A DNA stretch of 64,000 bases from Eledone cirrhosa (Eukaryota). Every line of letters starts with the position of its first letter. Position 1 is the stretch's first letter. This document shows positions 7,140 to 30,165 of the stretch, in pieces. Where the stretch lies: assembly GCA_964016885.1 (NCBI GenBank), contig OZ024741.1:5146001-5210000 (forward strand), given 5' to 3'. Under the pieces are notes generated by a model. The model saw only the letters and a list, made by a program, of their open reading frames with translations. It was not told the DNA's origin and did not search any database. The position numbers and the translations under genes are program-made.

Positions 7140-7258
7140 GTTCCGATGAACCGCTCTGTCTTTAAATATGTTAATTATTTTCAACTGAACCAGATCAATA
7201 ATGATATATAGTCATTTGATCCAGAAATATTATATGGAGTAGCGAAACAATTGTAAAC
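7140..7258 (+). ncRNA. Minimal type-I hammerhead ribozyme motif, variant core CCGAUGA, enlarged helix II
   Basis: GTT-CCGATGA(7143-7149)-ACCGCTCT...GGAGTAGC-GAAA(7244-7247)-CAATTG-TA-AAC. Helix III is palindromic, the cleavage triplet is GUA, and helix I is only 3 bp. Confidence 0.55.
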
Positions 7259-7386
7259 GGACATTATTATTATTAATATTATTATTATTATTCTCTACAT
7301 TCCTTACATCAAACTAAAATATGTTGACAATCTTTTAATAATGTCTTCCTTGTGAAATTTGTGGTCTTGTTTTGCTTAACTAATGA

Positions 7387-7440
7387 ATATATATATCTAT
7401 ATCTATATCTATATCTATATGTGTGTCTGTGTGTGTGTAT
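7387..7440. repeat. Compound (TA)/(ATATCT)/(GT) microsatellite
   Basis: Read directly from the sequence. Confidence 0.85.
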
Positions 7441-7860
7441 TTCAAGTTGTATATAGCTATGGTATGACCACACTTAGAATTTGCATCACCGATCTGCTCA
7501 GAATATTGAACTCCTGGAAACTGTTCAGAAACATGTAACCAAGCGAATACCTTCCATCAGGCATCTAACATACTCTGAATGGCTTGCTTCTCTGGGCATG
7601 GATACATTGAAGCTCCGACGTCTGGCAACTGACTTGGTAGACAACCACAACATTATTAATCATCTTGCCAACAACAACCCAGATCACCTTTTTGAATTCC
7701 ATGTGTCTAACACACGTGGGCATACCCACAATGTCAGAAAACAGCGCAGCTCCCATGACATTTAGAAACATTTTTTCACACTCAGAGTTTCTGAAGCATG
7801 GAACAAACTCCCTGCATCAATTGTTAGCTATCGAGACACTGCATCCTTTAAAACCTCCAT
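7441..7860 (+). mobile_element. Decayed, 5'-truncated CR1-group LINE ORF2 C-terminal fragment
   Basis: Translates across frameshifts as FKLYIAMV*PHLEFASP...LLETVQKHVTKRIPSIRHLTYSEWLASLGMDTLKLRRLATDL...NTRGH...KHFFTLRVSEAWNKLPASIVS..DTASFKTSM. This matches the CR1/L2-group C-terminal pattern (LY..LVRPHLEY, LE.VQ, RR...DL, TRGH, FF..RV...WN.LP). Confidence 0.85.
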
Positions 7861-10800
7861 GGAACAAACTACATGCATCAGTTGTTAGCTGTCGAGACAC
7901 TGCATCATTTAAAACCTCCATGGAACAAACTCCCTGCATCAGTTGTTAGCTATCGAGACACTGCATCCTTTAAAACTGCCATGGAACAAACTATCTGCAT
8001 CAGTTGTTAGCTGTCGAGACACTGCATCCTTTAAAACCTCCATGGAACAAACTACATGCATCAGTTGTTAGCTGTTCAGACACTGCATCCTTTAAAACCT
8101 CCATGGAACAAACTACCTGCATCAGTTATTAGCTGTCGAGACACTGCATCCTTTAAAACCTCCATGGAACAAATTACCTGCATCAGTTGTTAGCTGTCGA
8201 GACGCTGCATCATTTAAAACCTCCATGGAACAAACTACCTGCATCAGTTGTTAGCTGTCGAGACACTGCATCCTTTAAAACCTCCATGGAACAAATTACC
8301 TGCATCAGTTGTTAGCTGTCGAGACACTGCATCCTTTAAAACCTCCATGGAACAAACTACCTTCATCAGTTGTTAGCTGCCGAGACACTGCATCCTTTAA
8401 AACCTCAATGGAACAAACTACCTTCTTCAGTTGTTAGCTGTCGAGACACTGCATCCTTTAAAACCTCCATGGAACAAACTACCTGCATCAGTTGTTAGCT
8501 GTCGAGACACTGCATCCTTTAAAACCTCCATGGAACAAATTACCAGCACCAGTTGTTAGCTGTCGAGACACTGGATCCTTTAAAACCTCCATAGAACAAA
8601 CTACCTTCATCAGTTGTAAGCTGTCGAGACACTGCATCCTTTAAAACCTCCATGGAACAAACTATCTGCATCAGTTGTTAGCTGTCGAGACACTGCATCC
8701 TTTAAAACCTCCATGGAACAAACTACCTTCATCAGTTGTTAGCTGTCGAGACACTGCATCCTTTAAAACCTCCATGGAACAAACTACCTTCATCAGTGGT
8801 TAGCTGTCGAGACACTGCATCCTTTAAAACCTCAATGGAACAAACTACATTCTTCAGTTGTTAGCTGTCGAGACACTGCATCCTTTAAAACCTCCATGGA
8901 ACAAACTACCTGCATCAGTTGTTAGCTGTCGAGACACTGCATCCTTTAAAACCTCCATGGAACAAACTACCAGCACCAGTTGTTAGCTGTCGAGACACTG
9001 GATCCTTTAAAACCTCCATGGAACAAACTACCTTCATCAGTTGTAAGCTGTCGAGACACTGCATCCTTTAAAACCTCCATGGAACAAACTATCTGCATCA
9101 GTTGTTAGCTGTCGAGACACTGCATCCTTTAAAACCTCCATGGAACAAACTACCTTCATCAGTTGTAAGCTGTCGGGACACTGCATCCTTTAAAACCTCC
9201 ATGGAACAAACTATCTGCATCAGTTGTTAGCTGTCGAGACACTGCATCCTTTAAAACCTCCATGGAACAAACTACCTTCATCAGTTGTTAGCTGTCGAGA
9301 CACTGCATCCTTTAAAACCTCCATGGAACAAACTACCTTCATCAGTTGTTAGCTGTCGAGACACTGGATCCTTTAAAACCTCCATGGAACAAACTACCTT
9401 CTTCAGTTGTTAGCTGTCGAGACACTGCATCCTTTAAAACCTCCATGGAACAAACTACCTGCATCAGTTGTTAGCTGTCGAGACACTGCATCCTTTAAAA
9501 CCTCCATGGAACAAACTACCTTCATCAGTTGTTAGCTGTCGAGACACTGCATCCTTTAAAACCTCCATGGAACAAACTACCTGCATCAGTTGTTAGCTGT
9601 CGAGACACTGCATCCTTAAAAACCTCCATGGAACAAACTACCTGTATCAGGTGTTAGCTGTCGAGACACTGCATCCTTTAAAACCTCCATGGAACAAACT
9701 ACCTTCTTCAGTTGTTAGCTGTCGAGACACTGCATCCTTTAAAACCTCCATGGAACAAACTACCTTCATCAGTTGTTAGCTGTCGAGACACTGGATCCTT
9801 TAAAACCTCCATGGAACAAACTACCTTCTTCAGTTGTTAGCTGTCGAGACACTGCATCCTTTAAAACCTCCATGGAACAAACTACCTGCATCAGTTGTTA
9901 GCTGTCGAGACACTGCATCCTTTAAAACCTCCATGGAACAAACTACCTGCATCAGTTGTTAGCTGTCGAGACACTGCATCCTTTAAAACCTCCATGGAAC
10001 AAACTACCTGCATCAGTTGTTAGCTGTCGAGACACTGCATCCTTAAAAACCTCCATGGAACAAACTACCTGCATCAGTTGTTAGCTGTCGAGACACTGCA
10101 TCCTTTAAAACCTCCATGGAACAAACTACCTTCATCAGTTGTTAGCTGTCGAGACACTGCATCCTTTAAAACCTCCATGGAACAAACTACCTTCATCAGT
10201 TGTTAGCTGTCGAGACACTGCATCCTTTAAAACCTCCATGGAACAAACTACCTGCATCAGTTGTTAGCTGTCGAGACACTGCATCCTTAAAAACCTCCAT
10301 GGAACAAACTACCTGTATCAGGTGTTAGCTGTCGAGACACTGCATCCTTTAAAACCTCCATGGAACAAACTACCTTCTTCAGTTGTTAGCTGTCGAGACA
10401 CTGCATCCTTTAAAACCTCCATGGAACAAACTACCTTCATCAGTTGTTAGCTGTCGAGACACTGGATCCTTTAAAACCTCCATGGAACAAACTACCTTCT
10501 TCAGTTGTTAGCTGTCGAGACACTGCATCCTTTAAAACCTCCATGGAACAAACTACCTGCATCAGTTGTTAGCTGTCGAGACACTGCATCCTTTAAAACC
10601 TCCATGGAACAAACTACCTGCATCAGTTGTTAGCTGTCGAGACACTGCATCCTTTAAAACCTCCATGGAACAAACTACCTGCATCAGTTGTTAGCTGTCG
10701 AGACACTGCATCCTTAAAAACCTCCATGGAACAAACTACCTGCATCAGTTGTTAGCTGTCGAGACACTGCATCCTTTAAAACCTCCATGGAACAAACTAC

Positions 10801-11154
10801 CTTCATCAGTTGTTAGCTGTCGAGACACTGCATCCTTTAAAACCTCCATGGAACAAACTACCTGCATCAGTTGTTAGCTGTCGAGACACTGCATCCTTAA
10901 AAACCTCCATGGAACAAACTACCTGTATCAGGTGTTAGCTGTCGAGACACTGCATCCTTTAAAACCTCCATGGAACAAACTACCTTCTTCAGTTGTTAGC
11001 TGTCGAGACACTGCATCCTTTAAAACCTCCATGGAACAAACTACCTTCATCAGTTGTTAGCTGTCGAGACACTGGATCCTTTAAAACCTCCATGGAACAA
11101 ACTACCCTCATCAGTTGTTAGCTGTCGGGACACTGCATCTTTAAAACCTCCATG
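7797..11154 (+). repeat. 61-bp tandem satellite, ~55 copies
   Basis: Consensus CATGGAACAAACTACCTGCATCAGTTGTTAGCTGTCGAGACACTGCATCCTTTAAAACCTC. The array begins and ends with CATG. Confidence 0.97.
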
Positions 11155-11160
11155 TTTCCT

Positions 11161-11225
11161 GTCAAGTACCAGTCAAGTACCAGTCAGGTACCAGTCAAGT
11201 ACTGGTCGAGTACAAGTCAAGTACC
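11161..11225 (+). repeat. 11-bp minisatellite (GTCAAGTACCA), ~6 copies, linking the two large arrays
   Basis: GTCAAGTACCA GTCAAGTACCA GTCAGGTACCA GTCAAGTACTG GTCGAGTACAA GTCAAGTACC. Confidence 0.9.
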
Positions 11226-14200
11226 CCATTCCAACAGTCCTCCATTCCACTACTTTCTAGGTCTACCTCTTCCAACAGTCCTCCATTACTCCTTTCTAGG
11301 TATACCTCTTCCCACAGTCCTCCATTCCACTCCTTTCTAGGTCTACTTCTTCCCACAGTCCTCCATTCCACTCCTTTCTAGGTCTACCCCTTCCAACAGT
11401 CCTCCATTACTCCTTTCTAGGTATACCTCTTCCGACAGACCTCCATTCCACCCTTTCTAGGTCTACCTCTTCCAACAGTCCCCCATTCCACTCCTATCTA
11501 GGTCTACCTCTTCCAACAGTCCTCCATTCCACACCTTTCTAGGACTAACTCTTCCAACAGTCCCCGATTCCACTCCTTTCTAGGTTTACCTCTTCCAACA
11601 GTCCCCCATTACTCCTTTCTAGGTCTACCTCTTCCAAAAGTCCTCCATTCCACTCCTTTCTAGGTCTACCTCTTCCAACAGTCCTCCATTACTCCTTTCT
11701 AGGTATACCTCTTCCCACAGACCCCCATTCCACTCCTTTCTAGGTATACCTCTTCCCACAGTCCTCCATTACACTCCTTTCTAGATCTACCTCTTCCAAC
11801 CGTCCTCCATTCCACTCCTTTCTAGGTCTACCTCTTCCAACTGTCCTCCATTAATCCTTTCTAGGTCTACCTCTTCCAACAGTCCTCCATTCCATTCCTT
11901 TCGAGGTCTACCTCTTCCAACAGTCCTCCCTTCCACACCTTTCTAGGTCTACCTCTTCCAACAGTCCCCCATTACACTCCTTTCTAGGTCTACCTCTTCC
12001 AACAGTCCTCCATTCCACTCATTTCTAGGTCTACCTCTTCCAACAGTCCTCCATTCCACTCCTTTCTAGGTCTACCTCTTCCAACAGTCCCCCATTACAC
12101 TCCTTTCTAGGTCTACCTCTTCCAACAGTCCCCCATTACACTCCTTTCTAGGTCTACCTCTTCCAACAGTCCTCCATTCCACTCCTTTCTAGGTCTACCT
12201 CTTCCAACAGTCCCCCATTACACTCCTTTCTAGGTCTACCTCTTCCAACAGTCCTCCATTCCACTCCTTTCTAGGTCTACCTCTTCCCACAGTCCCCCAT
12301 TCCACTCCTTTCTAGGTCTACCTCTTCCCACAGTCCTCCATTCCACTCCTTTCTAGGTCTACCTCTTCCAACAGTCCTCCATTCCACTCCTTTCTAGGTC
12401 TACCTCTTCCAACAGTCCTCCATTCCACTCCTTTCTAGGTCTACCTCTTCCAAAAGTCCTCCATTCCACTGCTTTCTAGGTCTACCTCTTCCAACAGTCC
12501 TCCATTCCACTCCTTTCTAGGTCTACCTCTTCCAACAGTCCTCCATTCCACTCCTTTCTAGGTCTACCTCTTCCAACAGTCCTCCATTCCACTCCTTTCT
12601 AGGTCTACCTCTTCCCACAGTCCTCCATTCCACACCTTTCTAGGACTACCTCTTCCAACAGTCCCCCATTCCACTCCTTTCTAGGTCTACCTCTTCCCAC
12701 AGTCCTCCACCCCACACCTTTCTAGGTCTACCTCTTCCAACAGTCCTCCATTCCACTCCTTTCTAGGTCCAACTCTTCCAACAGTCCTCCATTCCACTTC
12801 TTTCTAGGTCTACCTCTTCCAACAGTCCCCCATTCCACTCCTTTCTAGGTCTACCTCTTCCCACAGTCCTCCACCCCACACCTTTCTAGGTCTACCTCTT
12901 CCAACAGTCCTCCATTCCACTCCTTTCTAGGTCTACCTCTTCCCACAGTCCTCCATTCCACTCCTTTCTAGGTCTACCTCTTCCCACAGTCCTCCATTCC
13001 ACACCTTTCTAGGTCTACCTCTTCCAACAGTCCTCCATTCCACTCCTTTCTAGGTCTACCGCTTCCCACAGTCCTCCATTCCACACCTTTCTAGGTCTAC
13101 CTCTTCCAACAGTCCGCCATTCCACTCCTTTCTAGGTCTACCTCTTCCAACAGTCCTCCATTCCACACCTTTCTAGGTCTACCTCTTCCCACAGTCCTCC
13201 ATTAATCCTTTCTAGGTCTACCTCTTCCCACAGTCCTCCATTCCACTCCTTTCTAGGTCTACCTCTTCCAACAGTCCCCCATTCCACACCTTTCTAGGAC
13301 TACCTCTTCCCACAGTCCTCCATTAATCCTTTCTAGGTCTACCTCTTCCCACAGTCCTCCATTCCACTCCTTTCTAGGTCTACCTCTTCCAACAGTCCTC
13401 CATTCCACACCTTTCTAGGTCTACCTCTTCCCACAGTCCTCCATTAATCCTTTCTAGGTCTACCTCTCCCAACAGTCCTCCATTCCACTCCTTTCTAGGT
13501 CTACCTCTTCCAACAGTCCTCCATTCCACACCTTTCTAGGTCTACCTCTTCCCACAGTCCTCCATTAATCCTTTCTAGGTCTACCTCTCCCAACAGACCT
13601 CCATTCCACTCCTTTCTAGGTCTACCTCTTCCAACAGTCCTCCATTCCACTCCTTTCTAGGACTACCTCTTCCCACAGTCCTCCATTCCACACCTTTCTA
13701 GGTCTACCTCTCCCAACAGTCCTACATTCCACTCCTTTCTAGGTTTACCTCTTCCAACAGTCCGCCATTCCACACCTTTCTAGGTCTACCTCTTCCCACA
13801 GTCTTCCATTCCACTCCTTTCTAGGTCTACCTCTTCCCACAGTCCTCCATTCCACTCCTTTCTAGGACTACCCCTCCCAACAGTCCCCCATTCCACTCCT
13901 TTCTAGGTCTACCTCTTCCAACAGTCCTCTATTCCACTCCTTTCTAGGTCTACCTCTTCCAACAGTCCTCCATTCCACTCCTTTCTAGGTCTACCTCTTC
14001 CAACAGTCCTCCATTCCACTCCTTTCTAGGTCTACCTCTTCCAACAGTCCTCCATTCCACTCCTTTCTAGGTCTACCTCTTCCAACAGTCCTCCATTCCA
14101 CTCCTTTCTAGGTCTACCTCTTCCAACAGTCCTCCATTCCACTCCTTTCTAGGTCTACCTCTTCCAACAGTCCCCCATTCCACTCCTTTCTAGGTCTACC

Positions 14201-17200
14201 TCTTCCAACAGTCCTCCATTCCACTCCTTTCTAGGTCTACCTCTTCCAACAGTCCTCCATTCCACTCCTTTCTAGGTCTACCTCTTCCAACAGTCCCCCA
14301 TTCCACTCCTTTCTAGGTCTACCTCTTCCCACCGTCCTCCATTCCACACCTTTCTAGGTCTACCTCTCCCAACAGTCCTCCATTCCACACCTTTCTAGGT
14401 CTACCTCTTCCAACAGTCCTCCATTCCACACCTTTCTAGGTCTACCTCTTCCCACAGTCATCCATTCCACTCCTTTCTAGGTCTACCTCTTCCCACAGTC
14501 CTCCATACCACTCCTTTCTAGGACTACCTCTTCCCACAGTCCTCCATTCCACTCCTTTCAAGGACTACCTCTTCCCACAGTCCTCTATTCCACTCCTTTC
14601 TAGGACTACCTCTCCCAACAGTCCTCCATTCCACTCCTTTCTAGGTCTACCTCTTCCCACAGTCCTCCATTCCACTCCTTTCTAGGACTACCTCTTCCCA
14701 CAGTCCTCTATTCCACTCCTTTCTAGGACTACCACTCCCAACAGTCCTCCATTCCACTCCTTTCTAGGTCTACCTCTTCCCACAGTCCTCCATTAATCCT
14801 TTCTAGGTCTACCTCTTCCCACAGTCCTCCATTCCACTCCTTTCTAGGTCTACCTCTTCCCACAGTCCTCCATTCCACTCCTTTCTAGGTCTACCTCTTC
14901 CAACAGTCCTCCATTAATCCTTTCTAGGTCTACCTCTTCCATCAGTCCTCCATTCCACACCTTTCTAGGTCTACCTCTTCCCACAGTCCTCCATTAATCC
15001 TTTCTAGGTTTACCTCTTCCCACAGTCCTCCATTCCACTCCTTTCTAGGTCTACCTCTTCCCACAGTCCTCCATTAATCCGTTCTAGGTCTACCTCTTCC
15101 CACAGTCCTCCATTAATCCTTTCTAGGTCTACCTCTTCCCACGGTCCTCCAATCCACTCCTTTCTAGGTCTACCTCTTCCCACAGTCCTCCATTAATCCT
15201 TTCTAGGACTACCTCTTCCAACAGTCCTCCATTCCACTCCTTTCTAGGTCTACCTCGTCCCACAGTCCTCCAATCCACTCCTTTCTAGGTCTACCTCTTC
15301 ACACAGTCCTCCATTCCACTCCTTTCTAGGTCTACCTCTTCCCACAGTCCTCCATTCCACTCCTTTCTAGGTCTACCTCTTCCAACAGTCCTCCATTAAT
15401 CCTTTCTAGGTCTACCTCTTCCAACAGTCCTCCATTCCACACCTTTCTAGGTCTACCTCTTCCCACAGTCCTCCATTAATCCTTTCTAGGTTTACCTCTT
15501 CCCACAGTCCTCCATTCCACTCCTTTCTAGGTCTACCTCTTCCCACAGTCCTCCATTCCACTCCTTTCTAGGTCTACCTCTTCCAACAGTCCTCCATTCC
15601 ACACCTTTCTAGGTCTATCTCTTCCCACAGTCCTCCATTAATCCTTTCTAGGTTTACCTCTTCCCACAGTCCTCCATTCCACTCCTTTCTAGGTCTACCT
15701 CTTCCCACAGTCCTCCATTCCACTCCTTTCTAGGTCTACCTCTTCCAACAGTCCTCCATTCCACACCTTTCTAGGTCTACCTCTTCCCACAGTCCTCCAT
15801 TAATCCTTTCTAGGTCTACCTCTTCCCACAGTCCTCCAATCCACTCCTTTCTAGGTCTACCTCTTCCCACAGTCCTCCAATCCACTCCTTTCTAGGTCTA
15901 CCTCTTCCCACAGTCCTCCATTCCACTCCTTTCTAGGTCTACCTCTTCCCACAGTCCTCCATTCCACTCCTTTCTAGGTCTACCTCTTCCCACAGTCCTC
16001 CATTCCACACCTTTCTAGGTCTACCTCTTCCAACAGTCCTCCATTCCACTCCTTTCTAGGTCTACCTCTTCCAACAGTCCTCCATTCCACTCCTTTCTAG
16101 GTCTACCTCTCCCACAGTCCTCCATTCCACTCCTTTCTAGGTCTACCTCTCCCAACAGTCCTCCATTCCACTCCTTTCTAGGTCTACCTCTCCCAACAGT
16201 CCTCCATTCCACTCCTTTCTAGGTCTACCTCTTCCAACAGTCCTCCATTCCACTCCTTTCTAGGTCTACTTCTCCCAACAGTCCTCCATTCCACACCTTT
16301 CTAGGACTACCTCTTCCAACAGTCCCCCATTCCACTCCTTTCTAGGTCTACCTCTTCCAACAGTCCTCCATTCCACTCCTTTCTAGGACTACCTCTCCCA
16401 ACAGTCCTCCATTCCACACCTTTCTAGGTCTACCTCTCCCAACAGTCCTCCATTCCACTACTTTCTAGGTCTACCTCTTCCAACAGTCCTCCATTCCACA
16501 CCTTTCTAGGACTACCTCTCCCAACAGTCCTCCATTCCACTCCTTTCTAGGTCTACCTCTTCCAACAGTCCTCCATTCCACACCTTTCTAGGACTACCTC
16601 TTCCAACAGTCCCCCATTCCACTCCTTTCTAGGTCTACCTCTCCCAACAGTCCTCCATTCCACTCCTTTCTAGGTCTACCTCTTCCCACAGTCCTCCATT
16701 CCACACCTTTCTAGGTCTACCTCTTCCAACAGTCCCCCATTCCACTCCTTTCTAGGTCTACCTCTCCCAACAGTCCTCCATTCCACTCCTTTCTAGGACT
16801 ACCTCTTCCAACAGTCCCCCATTCCACTCCTTTCTAGGTCTACCTCTCCCAACAGTCCTCCATTCCACTCCTTTCTAGGTCTACCTCTCCCAACAGTCCT
16901 CCATTCCACTCCTTTCTAGGTTTACCTCTTCCAACAGTCCCCCATTCCACTCCTTTCTAGGTCTACCTCTTCCAACAGTCCTCCATTCCACACCTTTCTA
17001 GGTCTACCTCTTCCAACAGTCCTCCATTCCACTCCTTTCTAGGACTACCTCTTCCAACAGTCCCCTATTCCACTCCTTTCTAGGTCTACCCCTCCCAACA
17101 GTCCTCCATTCCACTCCTTTCTAGGACTACCTCTCCCAACAGTCCCTGATTCCACTCCTTTCTAGGTCTACCTCTCCCAACAGTCCTCCATTCCACACCT

Positions 17201-20200
17201 TTCTAGGACTACCTCTTCCCACAGTCCTCCATTCCACTCCTTTCTAGGTCTACCTCTTCCAACAGTCCTCCATTCCACTCCTTTCTAGGTCTACCTCTTC
17301 CCACAGTCCTCCATTCCACACCTTTCTAGGTCTACCTCTTCCAACAGTCCTCCATTCCACTCCTTTCTAGGTCTACCTCTTCCCACAGTCCTCCATTCCA
17401 CACCTTTCTAGGTCTACCTCTTCCAACAGTCCTCCATTCCACTCCTTTCTAGGTCTACCTCTTCCAACAGTCCTCCATTCCACACCTTTCTAGGTCTACC
17501 TCTCCCAACAGTCCTCCATTCCACTCCTTTCTAGGTCTACCTCTTCCAACAGTCCTCCATTCCACACCTTTCTAGGTCTACCTCTTCCAACAGTCCTCCT
17601 TTCCACTCCTTTCTAGGTCTACCTTTCCCAACAGTCCTCCATTCCACTCCTTTCTAGGTCTACCTCTTCCAACAGTCCCCCATTCCACTCCTTTCTAGGT
17701 CTACCTCTTCCAACAGTCCTCCATTCCACACCTTTCTAGGTCTACCTCTTCCAACAGTCCCCCATTCCACTCCTTTCTAGGTCTACCTCTTCCAACAGTC
17801 CTCCATTCCACACCTTTCTAGGTCTACCTCTTCCAACAGTCCCCCATTCCACTCCTTTCTAGGTCTACCTCTTCCAACAGTCCTCAATTCCACTCCTTTC
17901 TAGGTCTACCTCTTCCAACAGTCCTCCATTCCACTCCTTTCTAGGTCTACCTCTTCCAACAGTCCTCCATTCCACACCTTTCTAGGTCTACCTCTTCCAA
18001 CAGTCCTCCTTTCCACTCCTTTCTAGGTCTACCTTTCCCAACAGTCCTCCATTCCACTCCTTTCTAGGTCTACCTCTTCCAACAGTCCCCCATTCCACTC
18101 CTTTCTAGGTCTACCTCTTCCAACAGTCCTCCATTCCACTCCTTTCTAGGTCTACCTCTTCCAACAGTCCTCCATTCCACACCTTTCTAGGTCTACCTCT
18201 ACCAACAGTCCTCCTTTCCACTCCTTTCTAGGTCTACCTTTCCCAACAGTCCTCCATTCCACTCCTTTCTAGGTCTACCTCTTCCAACAGTCCCCCATTC
18301 CACTCCTTTCTAGGTCTACCTCTTCCAACAGTCCCCCATTCCACACCTTTCTAGGTCTACCTCTTCCAACAGTCCTCCATTCCACTCCTTTCTAGGTCTA
18401 CCTCTTCCAACAGTCCTCCATTCCACACCTTTCTAGGTCTACCTCTTCCAACAGTCCCCCATTCCACTCCTTTCTAGGTCTACCTCTTCCAACAGTCCTC
18501 CATTCCACACCTTTCTAGGTCTACCTCTTCCAACAGTCCCCCATTCCACTCCTTTCTAGGTCTACCTCTTCCAACAGTCCTCCATTCCACACCTTTCTAG
18601 GTCTACCTCTTCCAACAGTCCCCCATTCCACTCCTTTCTAGGTCTACCTCTTCCAACAGTCCTCCATTCCACTCCTTTCTAGGTCTACCTCTTCCAACAG
18701 TCCTCCATTTCACACCTTTCTAGGTCTACCTCTTCCAACAGTCCTCCTTTCCACTCCTTTCTAGGTCTACCTCTCCCAACAGTCCTCCATTCCACTCCTT
18801 TCTAGGTCTACCTCTTCCAACAGTCCTCCATTCCACACCTTTCTAGGTCTACCTCTTCCAACAGTCCCCCATTCCACTCCTTTCTAGGTCTACCTCTTCC
18901 AACAGTCCTCCATTCCACTCCTTTCTAGGTCTACCTCTCCCAACAGTCCCCCATTCCACTGCTTTCTAGGTCTACCTCTTCCAACAGTCCTCCATTCCAC
19001 TCCTTTCTAGGTCTACCTCTTCCCACAGTCCTCCATTCCACTCCTTTCTAGGTCTACCTCTTCCCACAGTCCTCCATTCCACTCCTTTCTAGGTCTACCT
19101 CTCCCAACAGTCCTCCATTCCACTCCTTTCTAGGTCTACCTCTTCCAACAGTCCTCCATTCCACTCCTTTCTAGGTCTACCTCTTCCAACAGTCCTCCAT
19201 TAATCCTTTCTAGGTCTACCTCTTCCCACAGTCCTCCATTCCACTCCTTTCTAGGTCTACCTCTTCCAACAGTCCTCTATTCCACTCCTTTCTAGGTCTA
19301 CCTCTTCCCACAGTCCCCCATTCCACTCCTTTCTAGGTCTACCTCTTCCAACAGTCCTCCATTCCACTCCTTTCTAGGTCTACCTCTTCCCACAGTCCTC
19401 CATTCCACACCTTTCTAGGTCTACCTCTTCCAACAGTCCTCCATTCCAATCCTTTCTAGGTCTACCTCTTCCCACAGTCCTCCATTCCACTCCTTTCTAG
19501 GTCTACCTCTTCCCACAGTCCTCCATTCCACTCCTTTCTAGGACTACCTCTTCCAACAGTCCCCCATTCCACTCCTTTCTAGGTCTACCTCTCCCAACAG
19601 TCCTCCATTCCAATTCTTTCTAGGTCTACCTCTTCCAACAGTCCCCCATTCCACTCCTTTCTAGGTCTACCTCTTCCAACAGTCCTCCATTCCACTCCTT
19701 TCTAGGTCTACCTCTCCCAACAGTCCCCCATTCCACTGCTTTCTAGGTCTACCTCTTCCAACAGTCCTCCATTCCACTCCTTTCTAGGTCTACCTCTTCC
19801 CACAGTCCTCCATTCCACTCCTTTCTAGGTCTACCTCTTCCCACAGTCCTCCATTCCACTCCTTTCTAGGTCTACCTCTTCCAACAGTCCTCCATTCCAC
19901 TCCTTTCTAGGTCTACCTCTTCCAACAGTCCTCCATTAATCCTTTCTAGGTCTACCTCTTCCCACAGTCCTCCATTCCACTCCTTTCTAGGTCTACCTCT
20001 TCCAACAGTCCTCTATTCCACTCCTTTCTAGGTCTACCTCTTCCCACAGTCCCCCATTCCACTCCTTTCTAGGTCTACCTCTTCCAACAGTCCTCCATTC
20101 CACTCCTTTCTAGGTCTACCTCTTCCCACAGTCCTCCATTCCACACCTTTCTAGGTCTACCTCTTCCCACAGTCCTCCATTCCACTCCTTTCTAGGTCTA

Positions 20201-23200
20201 CCTCTTCCAACAGTCCTCCATTCCACTCCTTTCTAGGTCTACCTCTTCCAACAGTCCTCCATTAATCCTTTCTAGGTCTACCTCTTCCCACAGTCCCCCA
20301 TTCCACTCCTTTCTAGGTCTACCTCTTCCAACAGTCCTCCATTCCACTCCTTTCTAGGTCTACCTCTTCCCACAGTCCTCCATTCCACTCCTTTCTAGGA
20401 CTACCTCTTCCAACAGTCCCCCATTCCACTCCTTTCTAGGTCTACCTCTCCCAACAGTCCTCCATTCCAATTCTTTCTAGGTCTACCTCTTCCCACAGTC
20501 CTCCATTCCACTCCTTTCTAGGACTACCTCTTCCAACAGTCCGCCATTCCACTCCTTTCTAGGTCTACCTCTTCCCACAGTGCCCCATTCCACTCCTTTC
20601 TAGGTCTACCTCTTCCAACAGTCCTCCATTCCACTCCTTTCTAGGTCTACCTCTTCCCACAGTCCCCCATTCCACTCCTTTCTAGGTCTACCTCTTCCAA
20701 CAGTCCTCCATTCCACTCCTTTCTAGGTCTACCTCTTCCCACAGTCCTCCATTCCACTCCTTTCTAGGACTACCTCTTCCAACAGTCCCCCATTCCACTC
20801 CTTTCTAGGTCTACCTCTCCCAACAGTCCTCCATTCCAATCCTTTCTAGGTCTACCTCTTCCCACAGTCCTCCATTCCACTCCTTTCTAGGACTACCTCT
20901 TCCAACAGTCCCCCATTCCACTCCTTTCTAGGTCTACCTCTCACAACAGTCCTCCATTCCACTCCTTACTAGGTCTACCTCTCCTAACAGTCCTCCATTC
21001 CACTCCTTTCTAGGTCTACCTCTTCCAACAGTCCTCCATTCCACTCCTTTCTAGGTCTACCTCTTCCCACAGTCATCCATTCCACTCCTTTCTAGGTCTA
21101 CCTCTTCCAACAGTCCTCCATTCCACTCCTTTCTAGGTCTACCTCTTCCCACAGTCATCCATTCCACTCCTTTCTAGGACTACCTCTTCCAACAGTCCTC
21201 CAATCCAATCCTTTCTAGGACTACCTCTTCCCACAGTCCTCCATTCCACTCCTTTCTAGGACTACCTCTTCCCACAGTCCTCCATTACTACTTTCTAGGT
21301 CTACCTCTTCCAACAGTCCCCCATTCCACTCCTTTCTAGGTCTACCTCTTCCAACAGTCCTCAATTCCACTCCTTTCTAGGTCTACCTCTTCCCACAGTC
21401 CTCCATTCCACTCCTTTCTAGGTCTACCTCTTCAACAGTCCTCCATTCCACACCTTTCTAGGACTACCTCTTTCAACAGTCCCCCATTCCACTCCTTTCT
21501 AGGACTACCTCTTCCAACAGTCCCCCATTCCACTACTTTCTAGGTCTACCTATTCCAACAGTCCTCCATTCCACTCCTTTCTAGGTCTACCTCTTCCCAC
21601 AGTCCTCCATTCCACACCTTTCTAGGACTACCTCTTCCAACAGTCCCCCATTCCACTCCTTTCTAGGTCTACCTCTCCCAACAGTCCTCCATTCCACTCC
21701 TTTCTAGGTCTACCTCTTCCAACAGTCCTCCATTCCACTCCTTTCTAGGTCTACCTCTTCCAACAGTCCCCCATTCCACTCCTTTCTAGGACTACCTCTT
21801 CCAACAGTCCCCCATTCCACACCTTTCTAGGACTACCACTCCCAACAGTCCTCCATTCCACTCCTTTCTAGGTCTACCTCTTCCAACAGTCCTCCATTCC
21901 ACTCCTTTCTAGGTCTACCTCTTCCAACAGTCCCCCATTCCACTCCTTTCTAGGACTACCTCTTCCAACAGTCCCCCATTCCACACCTTTCTAGGACTAC
22001 CTCTTTCAACAGTCCCCCATTCCACTCCTTTCTAGGACTACCTCTTCCAACAGTCCCCCATTCCACTACTTTCTAGGTCTACCTATTCCAACAGTCCTCC
22101 ATTCCACTCCTTTCTAGGTCTACCTCTTCCCACAGTCCTCCATTCCACACCTTTCTAGGACTACCTCTTCCAACAGTCCCCCATTCCACTCCTTTCTAGG
22201 TCTACCTCTCCCAACAGTCCTCCATTCCACTCCTTTCTAGGTCTACCTCTTCCAACAGTCCCCCATTCCACTCCTTTCTAGGACTACCTCTCCCAACAGT
22301 CCTCCATTCCACTCCTTTCTAGGTCTACCTCTTCCAACAGTCCTCCATTCCACTCCTTTCTAGGTCTACCTCTTCCCACAGTCCTCCATTCCACACCTTT
22401 CTAGGACTACCTCTTCCAACAGTCCCCCATTCCACTCCTTTCTAGGTCTACCTCTCCCAACAGTCCTCCATTCCACTCCTTTCTAGGTTTACCTCTTCCA
22501 ACAGTCCCCCATTCCACTCCTTTCTAGGTCTACCTCTCCCAACAGTCCTCCATTCCACTCCTTTCTAGGTTTACCTCTTCCAACAGTCCCCCATTCCACT
22601 CCTTTCTAGGTCTACCTCTTCCCACAGTCCTCCATTCCACACCTTTCTAGGACTACCTCTTCCAACAGTCCCCCATTCCACTCCTTTCTAGGTCTACCTC
22701 TCCCAACAGTCCTCCATTCCACTCCTTTCTAGGTCTACCTCTTCCAACAGTCCTCCATTCCACTCCTTTCTAGGTCTACCTCTTCCCACAGTCCTCCATT
22801 CCACACCTTTCTAGGACTACCTCTTCCAACAGTCCCCCATTCCACTCCTTTCTAGGTCTACCTCTCCCAACAGTCCTCCATTCCACTCCTTTCTAGGTTT
22901 ACCTCTTCCAACAGTCCCCCATTCCACTCCTTTCTAGGTCTACCTCTCCCAACAGTCCTCCATTCCACTCCTTTCTAGGTTTACCTCTTCCAACAGTCCC
23001 CCATTCCACTCCTTTCTAGGTCTACCTCTTCCCACAGTCCTCCATTCCACACCTTTCTAGGACTACCTCTTCCAACAGTCCCCCATTTTACTCCTTTCTA
23101 GGTCTACCTCTCCCAACAGTCCTCCATTCCACTCCTTTCTAGGTTTACCTCTTCCAACAGTCCCCCATTCCACTCCTTTCTAGGTCTACCTCTTCCCACA

Positions 23201-26200
23201 GTCCTCCATTCCACACCTTTCTAGGACTACCTCTTCCAACAGTCCCCCATTCCACTCCTTTCTAGGTCTACCTCTCCCAACAGTCCTCCATTCCACTCCT
23301 TTCTAGGACTACCTCTTCCAACAGTCCCCTATTCCACTCCTTTCTAGGTCTACCTCTCCCAACAGTCCTCCATTCCACTCCTTTCTAGGTCTACCTCTTC
23401 CAACAGTCCTCCATTCCACACCTTTCTAGGTCTACCTCTCCCAACAGTCCTCCATTCCACTCCTTTCTAGGACTACCTCTTCCAACAGTCCCCTATTCCA
23501 CTCCTTTCTAGGTCTACCTCTCCCAACAGTCCTCCTTTCCACTCCTTTCTAGGTCTACCTCTTCCCACAGTCCTCCATTCCACACCTTTCTAGGTCTACC
23601 TCTTCCAACAGTCCTCCATTCCACTCCTTTCTAGGTCTACCTCTCCCAACAGTCCTCCATTCCACTCCTTTCTAGGTCTACCTCTCCCAACAGTCCTCCA
23701 TTCCACACCTTTCTAGGACTACCTCTTCCAACAGTCCTCCATTCCACACCTTTCTAGGACTACCTCTTCCAACAGTCCCCCATTCCACTCCTTTCTAGGT
23801 CTACCTCTCCCAACAGTCCTCCATTCCACTCCTTTCTAGGTCTACCTCTCCCAACAGTCCTCCATTCCACTCCTTTCTAGGTCTACCTCTTCCAACAGTC
23901 CTCCATTCCACACCTTTCTAGGTCTACCTCTTCCAACAGTCCTCCATTCCACTCCTTTCTAGGTCTACCTCTCCCAACAGTCTTCCATTCCACACCTTTC
24001 TAGGACTACCTCTTCCAACAGTCCTCCATTCCACACCTTTCTAGGACTACCTCTTCCAACAGTCCTCCATTCCACTCCTTTCTAGGTCTACCTCTCCCAA
24101 CAGTCCTCCATTCCACACCTTTCTAGGACTACCTCTTCCAACAGTCCTCCATTCCACACCTTTCTAGGACTACCTCTTCCAACAGTCCTCCATTCCACAC
24201 CTTTCTAGGTCTACCTCTTCCCACAGTCCTCCATTCCACACCTTTCTAGGTCTACCTCTCCCAACAGTCCTCCATTCCACTCCTTTCTAGGTCTACCTCT
24301 TCCAACAGTCCTCCATTCCACACCTTTCTAGGTCTACCTCTTCCAACAGTCCTCCATTCCACTCCTTTCTAGGTCTACCTCTCCCAACAGTCTTCCATTC
24401 CACACCTTTCTAGGACTACCTCTTCCCACAGTCCTCCATTCCACTCCTTTCTAGGTCTACCTCTCCCAACAGTCCTCCATTCCACTCCTTTCTAGGTCTA
24501 CCTCTCCCAACAGTCCTCCATTCCACACCTTTCTAGGACTACCTCTTCCAACAGTCCCCCATTCCACTCCTTTCTAGGCCTACCTCTCCCAACAGTCCTC
24601 CATTCCACTCCTTTCTAGGTCTACCTCTCCCAACAGTCCTCCATTCCACACCTTTCTAGGACTACCTCTTCCCACAGTCCTCCATTCCACTCCTTTCTAG
24701 GTCTACCTCTTCCAACAGTCCTCCATTCCACTCCTTTCTAGGTCTACCTCTCCCAACAGTCCTCCATTCCACTCCTTTCTAGGTCTACCTCTCCCAACAG
24801 TCCTCCATTCCACTCCTTTCTAGGTCTACCTCTCCCAACAGTCCTCCATTCCACTCCTTTCTAGGTCTACCTCTTCCAACAGTCCTCCATTCCACTCCTT
24901 TCTAGGTCTACCTCTCCCAACAGTCCTCCATTCCACACCTTTCTAGGACTACCTCTTCCAACAGTCCCCCATTCCACTCCTTTCTAGGTCTACCTCTCCC
25001 AACAGTCCTCCATTCCACTACTTTCTAGGTCTACCTCTTCCAACAGTCCTCCATTCCACACCTTTCTAGGACTACCTCTCCCAACAGTCCTCCATTCCAC
25101 TCCTTTCTAGGTCTACCTCTTCCAACAGTCCTCCATTCCACACCTTTCTAGGACTACCTCTTCCAACAGTCCCCCATTCCACTCCTTTCTAGGTCTACCT
25201 CTCCCAACAGTCCTCCATTCCACTCCTTTCTAGGTCTACCTCTTCCCACAGTCCTCCATTCCACACCTTTCTAGGTCTACCTCTTCCAACAGTCCCCTAT
25301 TCCACTCCTTTCTAGGTCTACCTCTTCCAACAGTCCTCCATTCCACACCTTTCTAGGTCTACATCTTCCAACAGTCCTCCATTCCACACCTTTCTAGGAC
25401 TACCTCTTCCAACAGTCCCCCATTCCACTCCTTTCTAGGTCTACCTCTCCCAACAGTCCTCCATTCCACTCCTTTCTAGGTCTACCTCTTCCAACAGTCC
25501 TCCATTCCACTCCTTTCTAGGTCTACCTCTCCCAACAGTCCTCCATTCCACTCCTTTCTAGGTTTACCTCTTCCAACAGTCCCCCATTCCACTCCTTTCT
25601 AGGTCTACCTCTTCCAACAGTCCCCCATTCCACTCCTTTCTAGGTCTACCTCTTCCAACAGTCCTCCATTCCACACCTTTCTAGGTCTACCTCTTCCAAC
25701 AGTCCCCTATTCCACTCCTTTCTAGGTCTACCTCTCCCAACAGTCCTCCATTCCACTCCTTTCTAGGTCTACCTCTTCCAACAGTCCTCCATTCCACTCC
25801 TTTCTAGGTCTACCTCTCCCAACAGTCCTCCATTCCACTCCTTTCTAGGTTTACCTCTTCCAACAGTCCCCCATTCCACTCCTTTCTAGGTCTACCTCTT
25901 CCAACAGTCCCCCATTCCACTCCTTTCTAGGTCTACCTCTTCCAACAGTCCTCCATTCCACACCTTTCTAGGTCTACCTCTTCCAACAGTCCCCTATTCC
26001 ACTCCTTTCTAGGTCTACCTCTCCCAACAGTCCTCCATTCCACTCCTTTCTAGGTCTACCTCTTCCAACAGTCCTCCATTCCACTCCTTTCTAGGTCTAC
26101 CTCTCCCAACAGTCCTCCATTCCACTCCTTTCTAGGTCTACCTCTTCCAACAGTCCCCCATTCCACTCCTTTCTAGGTCTACCTCTTCCAACAGTCCTCC

Positions 26201-29200
26201 ATTCCACACCTTTCTAGGTCTACCTCTTCCAACAGTCCTCCATTCCACTCCTTTCTAGGTCTACCTCTTCCAACAGTCCTCCATTCCACTCCTTTCTAGG
26301 TCTACCTCTCCCAACAGTCCTCCATTCCACTCCTTTCTAGGTTTACCTCTTCCAACAGTCCTCCATTCCACTCCTTTCTAGGTCTACCTCTTCCAACAGT
26401 CCTCCATTCCACACCTTTCTAGGTCTACCTCTTCCAACAGTCCTCCATTCCACACCTTTCTAGGTCTACCTCTTCCAACAGTCCTCCATTCCACACCTTT
26501 CTAGGTCTACCTCTTCCAACAGTCCTCCATTCCACTCCTTTCTAGGTCTACCTCTTCCAACAGTCCTCCATTCCACACCTTTCTAGGTCTACCTCTTCCA
26601 ACAGTCCCCTATTCCACTCCTTTCTAGGTCTACCTCTTCCAACAGTCCTCCATTCCACTCCTTTCTAGGTCTACCTCTTCCAACAGTCCTCCATTCCACA
26701 CCTTTCTAGGTCTACCTCTTCCAACAGTCCCCTATTCCACTCCTTTCTAGGTCTACCTCTTCCAACAGTCCTCCATTCCACACCTTTCTAGGTCTACCTC
26801 TTCCAACAGTCCTCCATTCCACACCTTTCTAGGTCTACCTCTTCCAACAGTCCTCCATTCCACTCCTTTCTAGGTCTACCTCTTCCAACAGTCCTCCATT
26901 CCACACCTTTCTAGGTCTACCTCTTCCAACAGTCCTCCATTCCACTCCTTTCTAGGTCTACCTCTTCCAACAGTCCTCCATTCCACACCTTTCTAGGTCT
27001 ACCTCTTCCAACAGTCCTCCATTCCACTCCTTTCTAGGTCTACCTCTTCCAACAGTCCTCCATTCCACTCCTTTCTAGGTCTACCTCTTCCAACAGTCCT
27101 CCATTCCACTCCTTTCTAGGTCTACCTCTTCCAACAGTCCTCCATTCCACACCTTTCTAGGTCTACCTCTTCCAACAGTCCCCCATTACACTCCTTTCTA
27201 GGTCTACCTCTTCCAACAGTCCTCCATTCCACTCCTTTCTAGGTCTACCTCTTCCAACAGTCCTCCATTCCACTCCTTTCTAGGTCTACCTCTTCCAACA
27301 GTCCTCCATTCCACACCTTTCTAGGTCTACCTCTTCCAACAGTCCCCTATTCCACTCCTTTCTAGGTCTACCTCTCCCAACAGTCCTCCATTCCACTCCT
27401 TTCTAGGACTACCTCTTCCAACAGTCCCCTATTCCACTCCTTTCTAGGACTACCTCTTCCAACAGTCCTCCATTCCACTCCTTTCTAGGTCTACCTCTTC
27501 CAACAGTCCTCCATTCCACACCTTTCTAGGTCTACCTCTTCCAACAGTCCTCCATTCCACACCTTTCTAGGTCTACCTCTTCCAACAGTCCTCCATTCCA
27601 CTCCTTTCTAGGTCTACCTCTCCCAACAGTCCTCCATTCCACTCCTTTCTAGGACTACCTCTTCCAACAGTCCTCCATTCCACTCCTTTCTAGGTCTACC
27701 TCTTCCAACAGTCCTCCATTCCACTCCTTTCTAGGTCTACCTCTTCCAACAGTCCTCCATTCCACACCTTTCTAGGTCTACCTCTTCCAACAGTCCCCTA
27801 TTCCACTCCTTTCTAGGTCTACCTCTCCCAACAGTCCTCCATTCCACTCCTTTCTAGGACTACCTCTTCCAACAGTCCCCTATTCCACTCCTTTCTAGGA
27901 CTACCTCTTCCAACAGTCCTCCATTCCACTCCTTTCTAGGTCTACCTCTTCCAACAGTCCTCCATTCCACACCTTTCTAGGTCTACCTCTTCCAACAGTC
28001 CTCCATTCCACACCTTTCTAGGTCTACCTCTTCCAACAGTCCTCCATTCCACTCCTTTCTAGGTCTACCTCTTCCAACAGTCCTCCATTCCACTCCTTTC
28101 TAGGTCTACCTCTTCCAACAGTCCCCTATTCCACTCCTTTCTAGGACTACCTCTTCCAACAGTCCCCTATTCCACTCCTTTCTAGGACTACCTCTTCCAA
28201 CAGTCCCCTATTCCACTCCTTTCTAGGACTACCTCTTCCAACAGTCCTCCATTCCACTCCTTTCTAGGTCTACCTCTTCCAACAGTCCTCCATTCCACAC
28301 CTTTCTAGGTCTACCTCTTCCAACAGTCCTCCATTCCACACCTTTCTAGGTCTACCTCTTCCAACAGTCCTCCATTCCACACCTTTCTAGGTCTACCTCT
28401 TCCAACAGTCCTCCATTCCACTCCTTTCTAGGTCTACCTCTTCCAACAGTCCTCCATTCCACTCCTTTCTAGGTCTACCTCTTCCAACAGTCCCCTATTC
28501 CACTCCTTTCTAGGACTACCTCTTCCAACAGTCCCCTATTCCACTCCTTTCTAGGACTACCTCTTCCAACAGTCCCCTATTCCACTCCTTTCTAGGACTA
28601 CCTCTTCCAACAGTCCTCCATTCCACTCCTTTCTAGGTCTACCTCTTCCAACAGTCCTCCATTCCACACCTTTCTAGGTCTACCTCTTCCAACAGTCCTC
28701 CATTCCACACCTTTCTAGGTCTACCTCTTCCAACAGTCCCCCATTCCATACCTTTCTAGGTCTACCTCTTCCAACAGTCCTCCATTCCACTCCTTTCTAG
28801 GTCTACCTCTTCCAACAGTCCTCCATTAATCCTTTCTAGGTCTACCTCTTCCAACAGTCCTCCATTCCACTCCTTTCTAGGTCTACCTCTTCCAACAGTC
28901 CTCCATTCCACACCTTTCTAGGTCTACCTCTTCCAACAGTCCTCCATTCCACTCCTTTCTAGGACTACCTCTCCCAACAGTCCCCTATTCCACTCCTTTC
29001 TAGGTCTACCTCTCCCAACAGTCCTCCATTCCACTCCTTTCTAGGACTACCTCTTCCAACAGTCCCCTATTCCACTCCTTTCTAGGACTACCTCTTCCAA
29101 CAGTCCTCCATTCCACTCCTTTCTAGGACTACCTCTTCCAACAGTCCCCTATTCCACTCCTTTCTAGGTCTACCTCTCCCAACAGTCCTCCATTCCACTC

Positions 29201-29876
29201 CTTTCTAGGACTACCTCTTCCAACAGTCCCCTATTCCACTCCTTTCTAGGACTACCTCTTCCAACAGTCCTCCATTCCACTCCTTTCTAGGTCTACCTCT
29301 TCCAACAGTCCTCCATTCCACTCCTTTCTAGGTCTACCTCTTCCAACAGTCCCCCATTCCATACCTTTCTAGGTCTACCTCTTCCAACAGTCCTCCATTC
29401 CACACCTTTCTAGGTCTACCTCTTCCAACAGTCCTCCATTAATCCTTTCTAGGTCTACCTCTTCCAAGAGTCCTCCATTCCACTCCTTTCTAGGTCTACC
29501 TCTTCCAACAGTCCTCCATTAATCCTTTCTAGGTCTACCTCTTCCAACAGTCCTCCATTCCACACCTTTCTAGGTCTACCTCTTCCAACAGTCCTCCATT
29601 CCACTCCTTTCTAGGTCTACCTCTTCCAACAGTCCTCCATTCCACACCTTTCTAGGTCTACCTCTTCCAACAGTCCTCCATTAATCCTTTCTAGGTCTAC
29701 CTCTTCCAACAGTCCTCCATTCCACTCCTTTCTAGGTCTACCTCTTCCAACAGTCCTCCATTCCACTCCTTTCTAGGTCTACCTCTTCCAACAGTCCCCC
29801 ATTCCACACCTTTCTAGGTCTACCTCTTCCAACAGTCCCCCATTCCACTCCTTTCTAGGTCTACCTCTCCCAACAG
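11226..29876 (+). repeat. 41-bp tandem satellite, roughly 455 copies, with interspersed 39-bp variants
   Basis: Consensus CCATTCCACTCCTTTCTAGGTCTACCTCTTCCAACAGTCCT. The + strand is strongly C/T-rich. Confidence 0.97.
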
Positions 29877-29918
29877 CAACTCTGAGCGTGAAAAAATGTT
29901 CCCTAAAGCTCCCATAAC
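29874..29918 (-). mobile_element. Short CR1-group fragment abutting the 41-bp array
   Basis: Minus strand TTTAGGGAACATTTTTTCACGCTCAGAGTTGCTG (FREHFFTLRVA) aligns to 7761-7793 TTTAGAAACATTTTTTCACACTCAGAGTTTCTG. Confidence 0.75.
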
Positions 29919-29926
29919 TAATTAAA

Positions 29927-30002
29927 TATATAGATATACACACATACGTATATATATATACACACACACATACATATATATATATACACACACACATACA
30001 TA

Positions 30003-30040
<38 letters not shown>

Positions 30041-30165
30041 CATACACATATATACATACACATGCCCACATAATCACATACATATATATAATGAGAGAGT
30101 GATGCAGACACATACACACATACATGTATGCATACGCATACACATGCTTATATATATATATATAT
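29927..30165. repeat. Compound (TA)n/(CA)n microsatellite region
   Basis: Read directly from the sequence. Confidence 0.9.

What the first reader, a model, noticed from the sequence alone, without database searches (positions are those of the whole stretch)
7749..29918. The 22-kb composite satellite block is bracketed by inward-facing CR1 fragments that break at almost the same position
Seen: on the left (+), CATTTTTTCACACTCAGAGTTTCTG-AAG leads into the 61-mer array. On the right (-), CATTTTTTCACGCTCAGAGTTGCTG leads into the 41-mer array, with CAG (29874-29876) shared at the junction. Just beyond it, GCTCCCATAAC (29908-29918, +) matches GCTCCCATGAC (7749-7759, +), a micro-inversion. No unique DNA separates the 61-, 11- and 41-bp arrays. 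Inference: the block may stem from one complex template-switching event (reiterative copying of several retroelement 3' ends, or patchwork break repair), later expanded. That would be a mechanism that turns LINE ends into satellites.
Basis: partly seen in the sequence, partly recalled or inferred. Interest (0 to 1): 0.72.

Follow-up and report, generated by a model that had tools for sequence, protein, structure and literature searches.

The report
Satellites grown from a broken LINE
Three back-to-back blocks of repeated DNA sit at the cut end of one old jumping-gene copy, the first block being 55 copies of a piece of that gene itself, and they likely grew step by step from a patched-up chromosome break, which makes this a clear new example of a known way that repeats arise.

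Summary
The coordinates and strings are right; the title is not. The left LINE copy (about 7438-11161, CR1-type, likely octopus) does not break at the array start. The 61-mer is its own ORF2 tail, duplicated between two CATG sites, and the element resumes for 7 bases after the last unit. Its real cut lies 75 bases downstream of the right fragment's cut. The right fragment (35 bases, plus a 7-11 base in-place inversion) is real and has lost its 3' part. With one unit per array, it lies about 120 bases from the left cut. Best reading (0.5): an old break in the LINE tail was patched with short templated pieces, and two seeds later expanded in many steps (higher-order repeats, older left ends). 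Rivals: two tail-to-tail insertions with the centre deleted (0.2), chance or an imported satellite (0.13), one aberrant retrotransposition (0.12), misassembly (0.05). No tool identified the source of the 41- or 11-mer. No contig bridged the right junction; the middle one was not tested. LINE-derived satellites are in print, and this scan noted several elsewhere in this genome.

The parts
7377..7394 (+). Left copy of a short imperfect direct repeat shared with the right flank (possible degraded target-site or end duplication; weak)
   Evidence: 8 of 8 exact, then a TA tract; best of 35 other TA-tract flanks; found post hoc
7387..7437 (.). TA / TCTATA / TG microsatellite abutting the 5'-truncated LINE copy
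7438..7796 (+). Decayed C-terminal part of an endonuclease-RT LINE ORF2 (CR1-type), 5'-truncated; at least 24 of 348 bases differ from the family majority
7749..7793 (+). Segment homologous to the right-hand fragment and its inversion
7797..11154 (+). 61-bp array, 55 units, CATG at both ends; monomer is the ORF2 tail of the same copy; 10-11-unit higher-order repeats on the right
11155..11161 (+). Seven more bases of the LINE after the last unit, then the true 3' cut (23 coding bases and the 3' UTR are missing)
   Evidence: family continuation in loose ends; tblastn FKTSMFP against FKTSMLP
11161..11228 (.). Six imperfect 11-bp units with a small hairpin; source not identified
   Evidence: fold z -3.2; no match over 9 bases elsewhere in the window
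11229..29876 (-). 41-bp array, 456 units, with a 9-base terminal overlap; minus strand reads GRGRPRKEW; source not identified
   Evidence: present in runs X18 and X19, no cover in X1 and X21
29874..29908 (-). 35-base LINE fragment cut at both ends, 2 differences from the family majority; CAG shared with the 41-mer
29908..29918 (+). In-place inversion of the next LINE bases (11 with one mismatch, or 7-8 exact if the flank starts at 29915)
29915..29934 (+). Right copy of the short direct repeat, running into a TA/CA microsatellite

Best explanation
The block is one 5'- and 3'-truncated LINE copy whose ORF2 tail is tandemly repeated 55 times between two CATG sites, followed by an 11-bp stutter, a 41-bp array and a short inverted LINE fragment, and it likely began as a roughly 120-base patch of templated pieces laid down when a break in the young LINE's tail was repaired, with the arrays likely expanding later by ordinary slippage and unequal exchange. 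Shown: the anatomy, the identity of the 61-mer, the loss of both 3' tails, the junction overlaps and the multi-step structure of the arrays. Inferred: (1) a break removed the LINE's 3' end; (2) a repair polymerase switched template several times, giving the 11-mer stutter, the 41-mer seed, a fold-back copy of 35 bases from 75-110 bases upstream of the cut (or from another family copy) and a second switch that inverted the next 7-11 bases; (3) the 61-base duplication arose by slippage between the CATG sites in the same early period, not necessarily in the same event; (4) each array then grew on its own. No function is implied.
For: Monomer = ORF2 tail, and the element resumes after the array. 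The fragment and its inversion are beyond chance. The fragment lacks a 3' tail and no other piece of the tail was found in the unmasked window, so it is not an intact retrotransposed copy. Overlaps at the joints: CATG/CATG, G at 11161, TTCCA at 11229, CAG at 29874-29876, G at 29908. Size and layout match templated insertions at yeast breaks: most 5-34 bp, and complex ones often hold two pieces of one locus in inverted orientation (PMC11724301: abstract, Introduction and one Results section read). Early date: the left copy differs from the family at 24 of 348 bases (6.9%, lower bound), the fragment at 2 of 35, and they share no derived letter; in unit 2 the only majority differences listed for the species-I runs are its two private changes. 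Chance of a second family piece within 120 bases is about 0.006-0.2% per copy (rough). Multi-step growth: 24 unit types in 55 and 100 in 456, exact internal repeats up to 688 bases; unit types seen once in 13 of 18 left against 1 of 18 right, and 42 of 152 against 4 of 152.
Against: One locus only; no pre-expansion allele was found. The fragment carries family letters at the places where the left copy is changed (7760, 7764, 7780, 7790), so local copying holds only if it was early. The donors of the 11- and 41-mer are not in the window and were not found by any search. No listed contig bridges the right junction, and depth is 0 at 29913-29930 in all 4 runs, although the tool drops human-like records and a TA/CA tract follows. 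In the yeast paper, inversion junctions had a median 6 bp of microhomology, against 1 here, and the events were in repair mutants. The 61-mer tandem junction in run X1, which has no 41-mer cover, shows that this seed does not need the patch. A weak direct repeat brackets the block, which this model does not predict. At the upper copy-number bound about 75 chance pairs are expected genome-wide.
Confidence: 0.5

Rival explanations
1. Two independent LINE insertions landed tail to tail. The right one was 5'-truncated with a tiny 5' inversion. The resulting inverted repeat was unstable and lost its centre (both 3' tails), with filler DNA at the repair site; the arrays grew later.
For: The inversion abuts the flank, has a zero-gap inversion point and a 4-base near match between flank and element, which is the layout of a twin-primed 5' end. 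The fragment shares no derived letter with the left copy. Loss of inverted pairs by deletion is reported for Alu (PMC3215922, abstract only).
Against: A CR1/L2-group element (ZfL2-1) made no 5' inversions in cell assays (PMC4245944, passages). It needs a second insertion within a few hundred bases (0.006-0.2% per copy for 120 bases), followed by a deletion.
Confidence: 0.2
2. Chance layering: scraps of several mobile elements piled up in a repeat-rich region, or the 41-mer came in as an existing satellite through microhomology, and each array grew independently.
For: The region is packed with elements and holds a fourth, unrelated 30-kb array. The family has very roughly 1,300-42,000 copies, giving up to about 75 chance pairs. 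Microhomology-guided insertion of one satellite beside another, with complex junctions, is reported in Drosophila (PMC7403614, passages).
Against: The fragment overlaps exactly the 45 bases before the array start, is cut at both ends and carries an in-place inversion. No unique DNA lies between the pieces. Summed depth of the 41-mer (383-11,876 copies, rough) does not require further loci.
Confidence: 0.13
3. The whole collapsed block (about 650 bases) was one aberrant retrotransposition event with template jumps by the reverse transcriptase, flanked by a target-site duplication at 7377-7394 and 29915-29934.
For: The direct repeat is the best match among 35 other TA-tract flanks, and 2 of 473 control pieces score as high. 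The array consensus equals the family majority at the listed sites. Complex multi-template L1 insertions occur (PMC11702581, passages).
Against: The repeat was found post hoc, occurs a third time at 32960, and is separated from the element by about 43 bases of microsatellite. CR1-clade target duplications peak at 3-5 bp (PMC4245944). Neither arm has a 3' tail, and priming from both flanks gives back-to-back, not facing, arms (inference from the twin-priming model).
Confidence: 0.12
4. One or more junctions are assembly artefacts.
For: No listed contig bridges the right junction; the middle junction was not tested.
Against: Runs X18 and X19 hold 0.56 and 0.53 of the words of the left stretch, against at most 0.16 for other species labels, and hold the 41-mer; they may be the assembly's own sample. 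The element resumes in register after 55 units, edge units carry private changes, and 157 raw reads of another sample show the 61-mer tandem junction.
Confidence: 0.05

Closest known systems
LINE-derived satellites: chicken HinfI repeat (CR1 3' UTR plus part of ORF2), cetacean common satellite (L1 3' part), PROsat (L1 ORF2), as listed in the review PMC9659126 (passages)
   Same: The monomer comes from the 3' region of a LINE ORF2.
   Different: Here the array still sits inside its parent copy, in register on both sides, with the 4-base repeat that bounds the unit intact. It is a single 3.4-kb array, not shown to be a dispersed family.
SINE-derived satellites of squamates (PMC10702118, abstract and passages)
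   Same: A portion of a high-copy retroelement is tandemly amplified in place, and arrays homogenise as they grow.
   Different: The donor here is LINE coding sequence, and the block is a composite of three arrays at a cut end.
Templated and inverted insertions at double-strand breaks (PMC11724301; abstract, Introduction, one Results section)
   Same: Short (5-35 bp) inverted copies, several pieces, two pieces of one locus inverted, few-base microhomologies.
   Different: Seen de novo in yeast, largely in mutants, with longer microhomology at the inversion; the sections read do not report later growth into satellites.
Rsp-like/1.688 mixed satellite clusters in Drosophila (PMC7403614, passages)
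   Same: Different satellites abut at microhomology junctions, with complex variable junctions ascribed to template-switching repair.
   Different: There an existing satellite spreads to many loci; here at least one array was born in place from a LINE.
Twin-primed 5' inversions of L1 (PMC2912911, PMC11702581, PMC4245944; passages)
   Same: An inverted piece next to the flank with an almost gap-free inversion point.
   Different: The inversion is only 7-11 bases, the 3' tail is absent, and the tested CR1/L2-group element made no such inversions.

Membership tests
LINE-derived satellite | Monomer homologous to a dispersed LINE (61-mer) | tested here: met
LINE-derived satellite | Head-to-tail array with homogenisation or higher-order structure | tested here: met
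LINE-derived satellite | Monomer homologous to a dispersed retroelement (41-mer as RTE, 11-mer as SINE; both labels recalled) | tested here: inconclusive
   No 80% match to the 41-mer in X1 contigs or X21 reads; protein, atlas and Pfam searches blank; 15 of 15 metagenome hits of the 11-mer motif showed no match to the window; no octopus repeat library on hand
APE-type LINE ORF2 | Full-length relatives carry endonuclease plus RT, with this segment at the C-terminus | tested here: met
   7 of the 8 listed hits over 800 aa were scanned; 6 of 7 have Exo_endo_phos_2 and RVT_1
CR1 clade | RT phylogeny with named CR1 references | not tested
Templated insertion at a break | Short inserted pieces copied from identifiable donors | tested here: inconclusive
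   Met for the 35-base fragment and its inversion; donors of the 11- and 41-mer not found
Templated insertion at a break | Microhomology at junctions | tested here: met
   1-5 bases at each joint; overlaps this short are weak evidence alone
Templated insertion at a break | Pre-event allele showing the deletion and insertion | not testable with these tools
   No genome held; no orthologous contig seen in X1 or X2
Canonical target-primed LINE insertion | Intact 3' tail | tested here: not met
   Both pieces stop inside ORF2
Canonical target-primed LINE insertion | Target-site duplication of clade-typical length directly flanking the insert | tested here: inconclusive
   A weak repeat of about 18 bases, not adjacent on the left; CR1 peak is 3-5 bp
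Twin-primed 5' inversion | Inverted piece at the flank with inversion point next to the primer site | tested here: met
Twin-primed 5' inversion | Sense segment runs to the element's 3' end | tested here: not met
   It ends after about 34 bases

The most novel reading that the evidence does not exclude
Patchwork repair junctions are satellite nurseries: one template-switching repair of a broken young LINE laid down several short direct repeats at once, and these seeded neighbouring kilobase arrays, so composite satellite blocks in this genome should routinely collapse to templated-insertion junctions of 100-200 bases.
Probability: 0.2. Interest if true: 0.65.

Novelty: new member of a known kind. 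Interest (0 to 1): 0.36.

Why it matters
How the first tandem duplication of a satellite arises is rarely visible, because growth erases the junctions. Here the 61-mer's birth site survives: parent element on both sides, in register, with the 4-base repeat that bounds the unit. If the centre is a repair patch, it links templated-insertion repair to the origin of composite satellite blocks, which a genome-wide collapse of arrays could test directly. As one locus with two unidentified donors it is a good illustration, not a new mechanism.

Tried and rejected
No whole genome is held, so no genome-wide density or enrichment test was possible. Donor of the 41-mer: protein search found no candidate, the atlas gave unnamed clusters with a low recognition value, Pfam gave 0 families, the Petrosino supplements had 0 hits for 5 motifs in the 4 of 8 listed files searched (files 5-8 and two oversize files were not seen and may hold an RTE sequence), and a paper search for the motif gave 3 unrelated listings. 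Donor of the 11-mer: 0 viral hits; 15 metagenome hits, none with a blastn match to the window at E 1e-3; the MetaSINE supplement had no match to the longer motifs and 1 of its 2 files was not searched. The LINE 25-mer had 0 metagenome hits. The first protein search for longer relatives found none at E 0.001. A 13-of-14 match between the 50-mer and the 61-mer was rejected: 17 of 3000 shuffles reach it under one scoring but 198 of 3000 under another, and control pieces of the Tx1-type element score as high (maximum 24 against 23, 120 pieces). An inverted copy of the left microsatellite at the right flank was rejected: 3 of 5 other tracts score as high or higher. G-quadruplex drive of the 41-mer was rejected: mean score -0.68, 6% of windows reach 1.2. 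Rfam on 29800-34300 gave 45 matches, none at a gathering score. P0009 looked like a tandem LINE-derived protein but is an unrelated repeat protein. The 17 small-share runs are no evidence of orthology; 2 of them were laid. Look-ups of earlier findings near this place, by sequence (twice) and by words returned nothing.
Full report
Observation. Tandem Repeats Finder gives a 61-mer at 7797-11154 (55.1 copies), an 11-mer at 11161-11225 (5.9) and a 41-mer at 11229-29876 (456), plus a separate 50-mer from 34246 to the window end. The right-hand fragment aligns to the left copy with score 46, reached by 0 of 2000 shuffles, and the inverted 11-mer has a chance of 6e-6 at one given place.

What the left element is. 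Bases 7438-7857 are the decayed C-terminal end of a LINE ORF2. The read-through protein has 5 relatives at 67-76% identity among 12 candidates, one from Octopus vulgaris. A full scan gave 1,556 proteins at E 0.001 or better. Of the 8 listed hits over 800 aa I scanned 7, and 6 carry an AP endonuclease and an RT domain with the match near their C-terminus. One relative is named 'RNA-directed DNA polymerase from mobile element jockey-like [Octopus vulgaris]'. The host is likely an octopus; in O. vulgaris LINEs make up 12.9% of the genome and CR1 is among the recently active groups (PMC13282606, first third of the text read).

The title claim fails. The 61-mer is the element's own sequence: it translates WNKLPASVVSCRDTASFKTS, and CATG stands at both ends of the array (7797 and 11151). 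After the last unit come 7 more bases of the element. Family reads continue at this point with the same bases but for one (loose ends of 3,636 and 6,070 reads in X21), and tblastn reads FKTSMFP against FKTSMLP. The left copy is therefore cut at 11161, position 7868 in single-copy terms, 23 bases before the stop. The right fragment is cut at 7793 in the same terms, 75 bases earlier. What lies close together is the array start and the right fragment's cut (4 bases), which I cannot separate from chance with one case.

The right fragment. Family reads match 29874-29908 and leave it on both sides (8,291 and 8,592 loose ends among 8,907 reads of X21). It differs from the family at 2 of 35 places. 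The family continues with the reverse complement of what the window has at 29908-29918, so this is an inversion in place, with a shared G at 29908. If the flank begins at 29915, the inversion is 7-8 exact bases. The fragment has no 3' tail, and tblastn found no other piece of the tail in the unmasked window. With one unit per array, the fragment lies about 120 bases from the left cut, and its counterpart lies 75-110 bases upstream of that cut.

Timing. In 7449-7796, table 3 shows 33 rows. I kept the 24 where the majority in both X18 and X21 differs from the window and dropped 9 mixed or minority rows; 85 further rows of the table were not shown, so 24 of 348 (6.9%) is a lower bound. The fragment has the family letter where the left copy is changed, and the two share no derived letter. 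In unit 2 the only majority differences listed for X18 and X21 are its two private changes, so the array consensus matches the family at the listed sites; at 6.9% an unchanged 61-mer has p = 0.013. Both the duplication and the fragment thus likely date from early in the copy's life. This fits one episode but does not prove it, and it cannot tell a local donor from a distant one.

Growth of the arrays. The 61-mer has 24 unit types in 55 units (2.6% from the commonest) and the 41-mer 100 in 456 (3.7%), with exact internal repeats up to 688 bases and 10-11-unit blocks. Unit types seen once crowd the left ends: 13 of 18 against 1 of 18, and 42 of 152 against 4 of 152 (units are not independent, so the p-values overstate). 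The arrays were built in many rounds, not copied out in one event.

Read evidence. Two runs of one sample hold 0.56 and 0.53 of the words of 7290-7870, against at most 0.16 for other species labels, and they hold the 41-mer; they may be the assembly's own sample. The 61-mer tandem junction appears in 157 raw reads (11 starts, up to 72 bases on the shorter side) of another sample with the same species label, and in one contig of X1, a run with another species label. X1 has no cover of the 41-mer at all, so the CATG-to-CATG duplication exists without the 41-mer, either as a recurrent slip in this family or as an older stage of this locus. Against my reading, no listed contig bridges the right junction and depth is 0 at 29913-29930 in all four runs; the tool drops human-like records, a microsatellite follows, and 608 pieces were not shown.

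The 11- and 41-mers. Neither matches anything else in the window beyond 9 bases. The minus strand of the 41-mer reads GRGRPRKEW, which recalls the C-terminal motif of RTE-type ORFs, and the 11-mer recalls an octopus SINE; both labels are from memory and no call supports them.

Mechanism. The best fit is a break in the young element's tail, repaired by synthesis with several template switches. Yeast breaks acquire templated inverted copies of mostly 5-34 bp, and complex insertions often hold two pieces of one locus in inverted orientation (PMC11724301), which is the layout of the fragment and its inversion. The fit is imperfect: those inversion junctions had a median 6 bp of microhomology and came largely from mutants. 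The main rival is two facing insertions whose centre was deleted (Alu precedent, PMC3215922, abstract). The right end does look like a twin-primed 5' end, but a CR1/L2-group element made no 5' inversions in cell assays (PMC4245944). A single aberrant insertion is suggested by a short direct repeat at 7377 and 29915, the best of 35 other TA-tract flanks and matched by 2 of 473 control pieces; but it was found post hoc, recurs at 32960, is not adjacent on the left, and is longer than the 3-5 bp typical of CR1. Chance adjacency is unlikely per copy (0.006-0.2%) but not excluded genome-wide (0.08-75 expected pairs), from rough copy-number bounds of 1,345-41,704 that assume a single-copy depth of 7.5 and a 2.8-Gb genome, the size being my assumption.

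What is known. LINE-derived satellites are in print, including one with CR1 ORF2 sequence in chicken (review PMC9659126), as are SINE-derived satellites (PMC10702118) and satellites joined at microhomology junctions (PMC7403614). My searches listed no paper by title or abstract start on arrays seeded by a templated-insertion junction; that library lacks most subscription journals. Earlier notes of this scan report LINE-derived arrays at several other places in this genome; I did not check them.

Verdict. Real, and a well-preserved birth site for the 61-mer, but a new member of a known kind. The symmetric break in the title is a misreading; the patchwork idea is the most likely origin of the centre and right end at about even odds. 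Interest 0.36.

Noticed in passing
window 34246-64000: A fourth array, 50-bp unit, at least 594 copies, with a recent higher-order repeat of about 2.6 kb near the window end; source unknown; a 13-of-14 match to the 61-mer did not survive controls.
   Followed up: partly
window 7797-64000: All three long arrays have more one-off unit types at their left ends and more exact duplications to the right; the right end of the 50-mer lies outside the window.
   Followed up: partly
window 1007-6600 (-): A near-complete LINE with a long upstream ORF and an endonuclease plus RT plus zf-RVT ORF2 broken by a frameshift near 3480; Tx1-like by recall.
   Followed up: partly
window 1-654 (+): 3' end of another non-LTR element (zinc finger, then what looks like a restriction-type nuclease domain by recall), followed by an AAT tract.
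   Followed up: no
window 6772-7283, 30650-30984, 31119-31653: Three imperfect inverted repeats (88-95% identity), with hammerhead-like core words nearby; they resemble two-armed Penelope-type insertions noted elsewhere in this genome. Rfam found no ribozyme at threshold in 29800-34300.
   Followed up: partly
window 32300-32495 and 32685-32883: Two direct copies (78% identical) of a short element ending in GAT tracts, likely a SINE.
   Followed up: no
window 33697-33833: A small 50-bp (24+26) tandem of 2.6 perfect copies, unrelated to the large 50-mer; a possible array seed.
   Followed up: no
run X1 on window 7863-7906: Contigs with 41- and 44-base tandem duplications within the same ORF2 tail segment, suggesting that this segment duplicates repeatedly in the family.
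   Followed up: no
window 29842-29907 (-): The LINE fragment and the last 41-mer unit read in one frame (FREHFFTLRVAVGRGRPRKEWN); a one-in-three coincidence.
   Followed up: no
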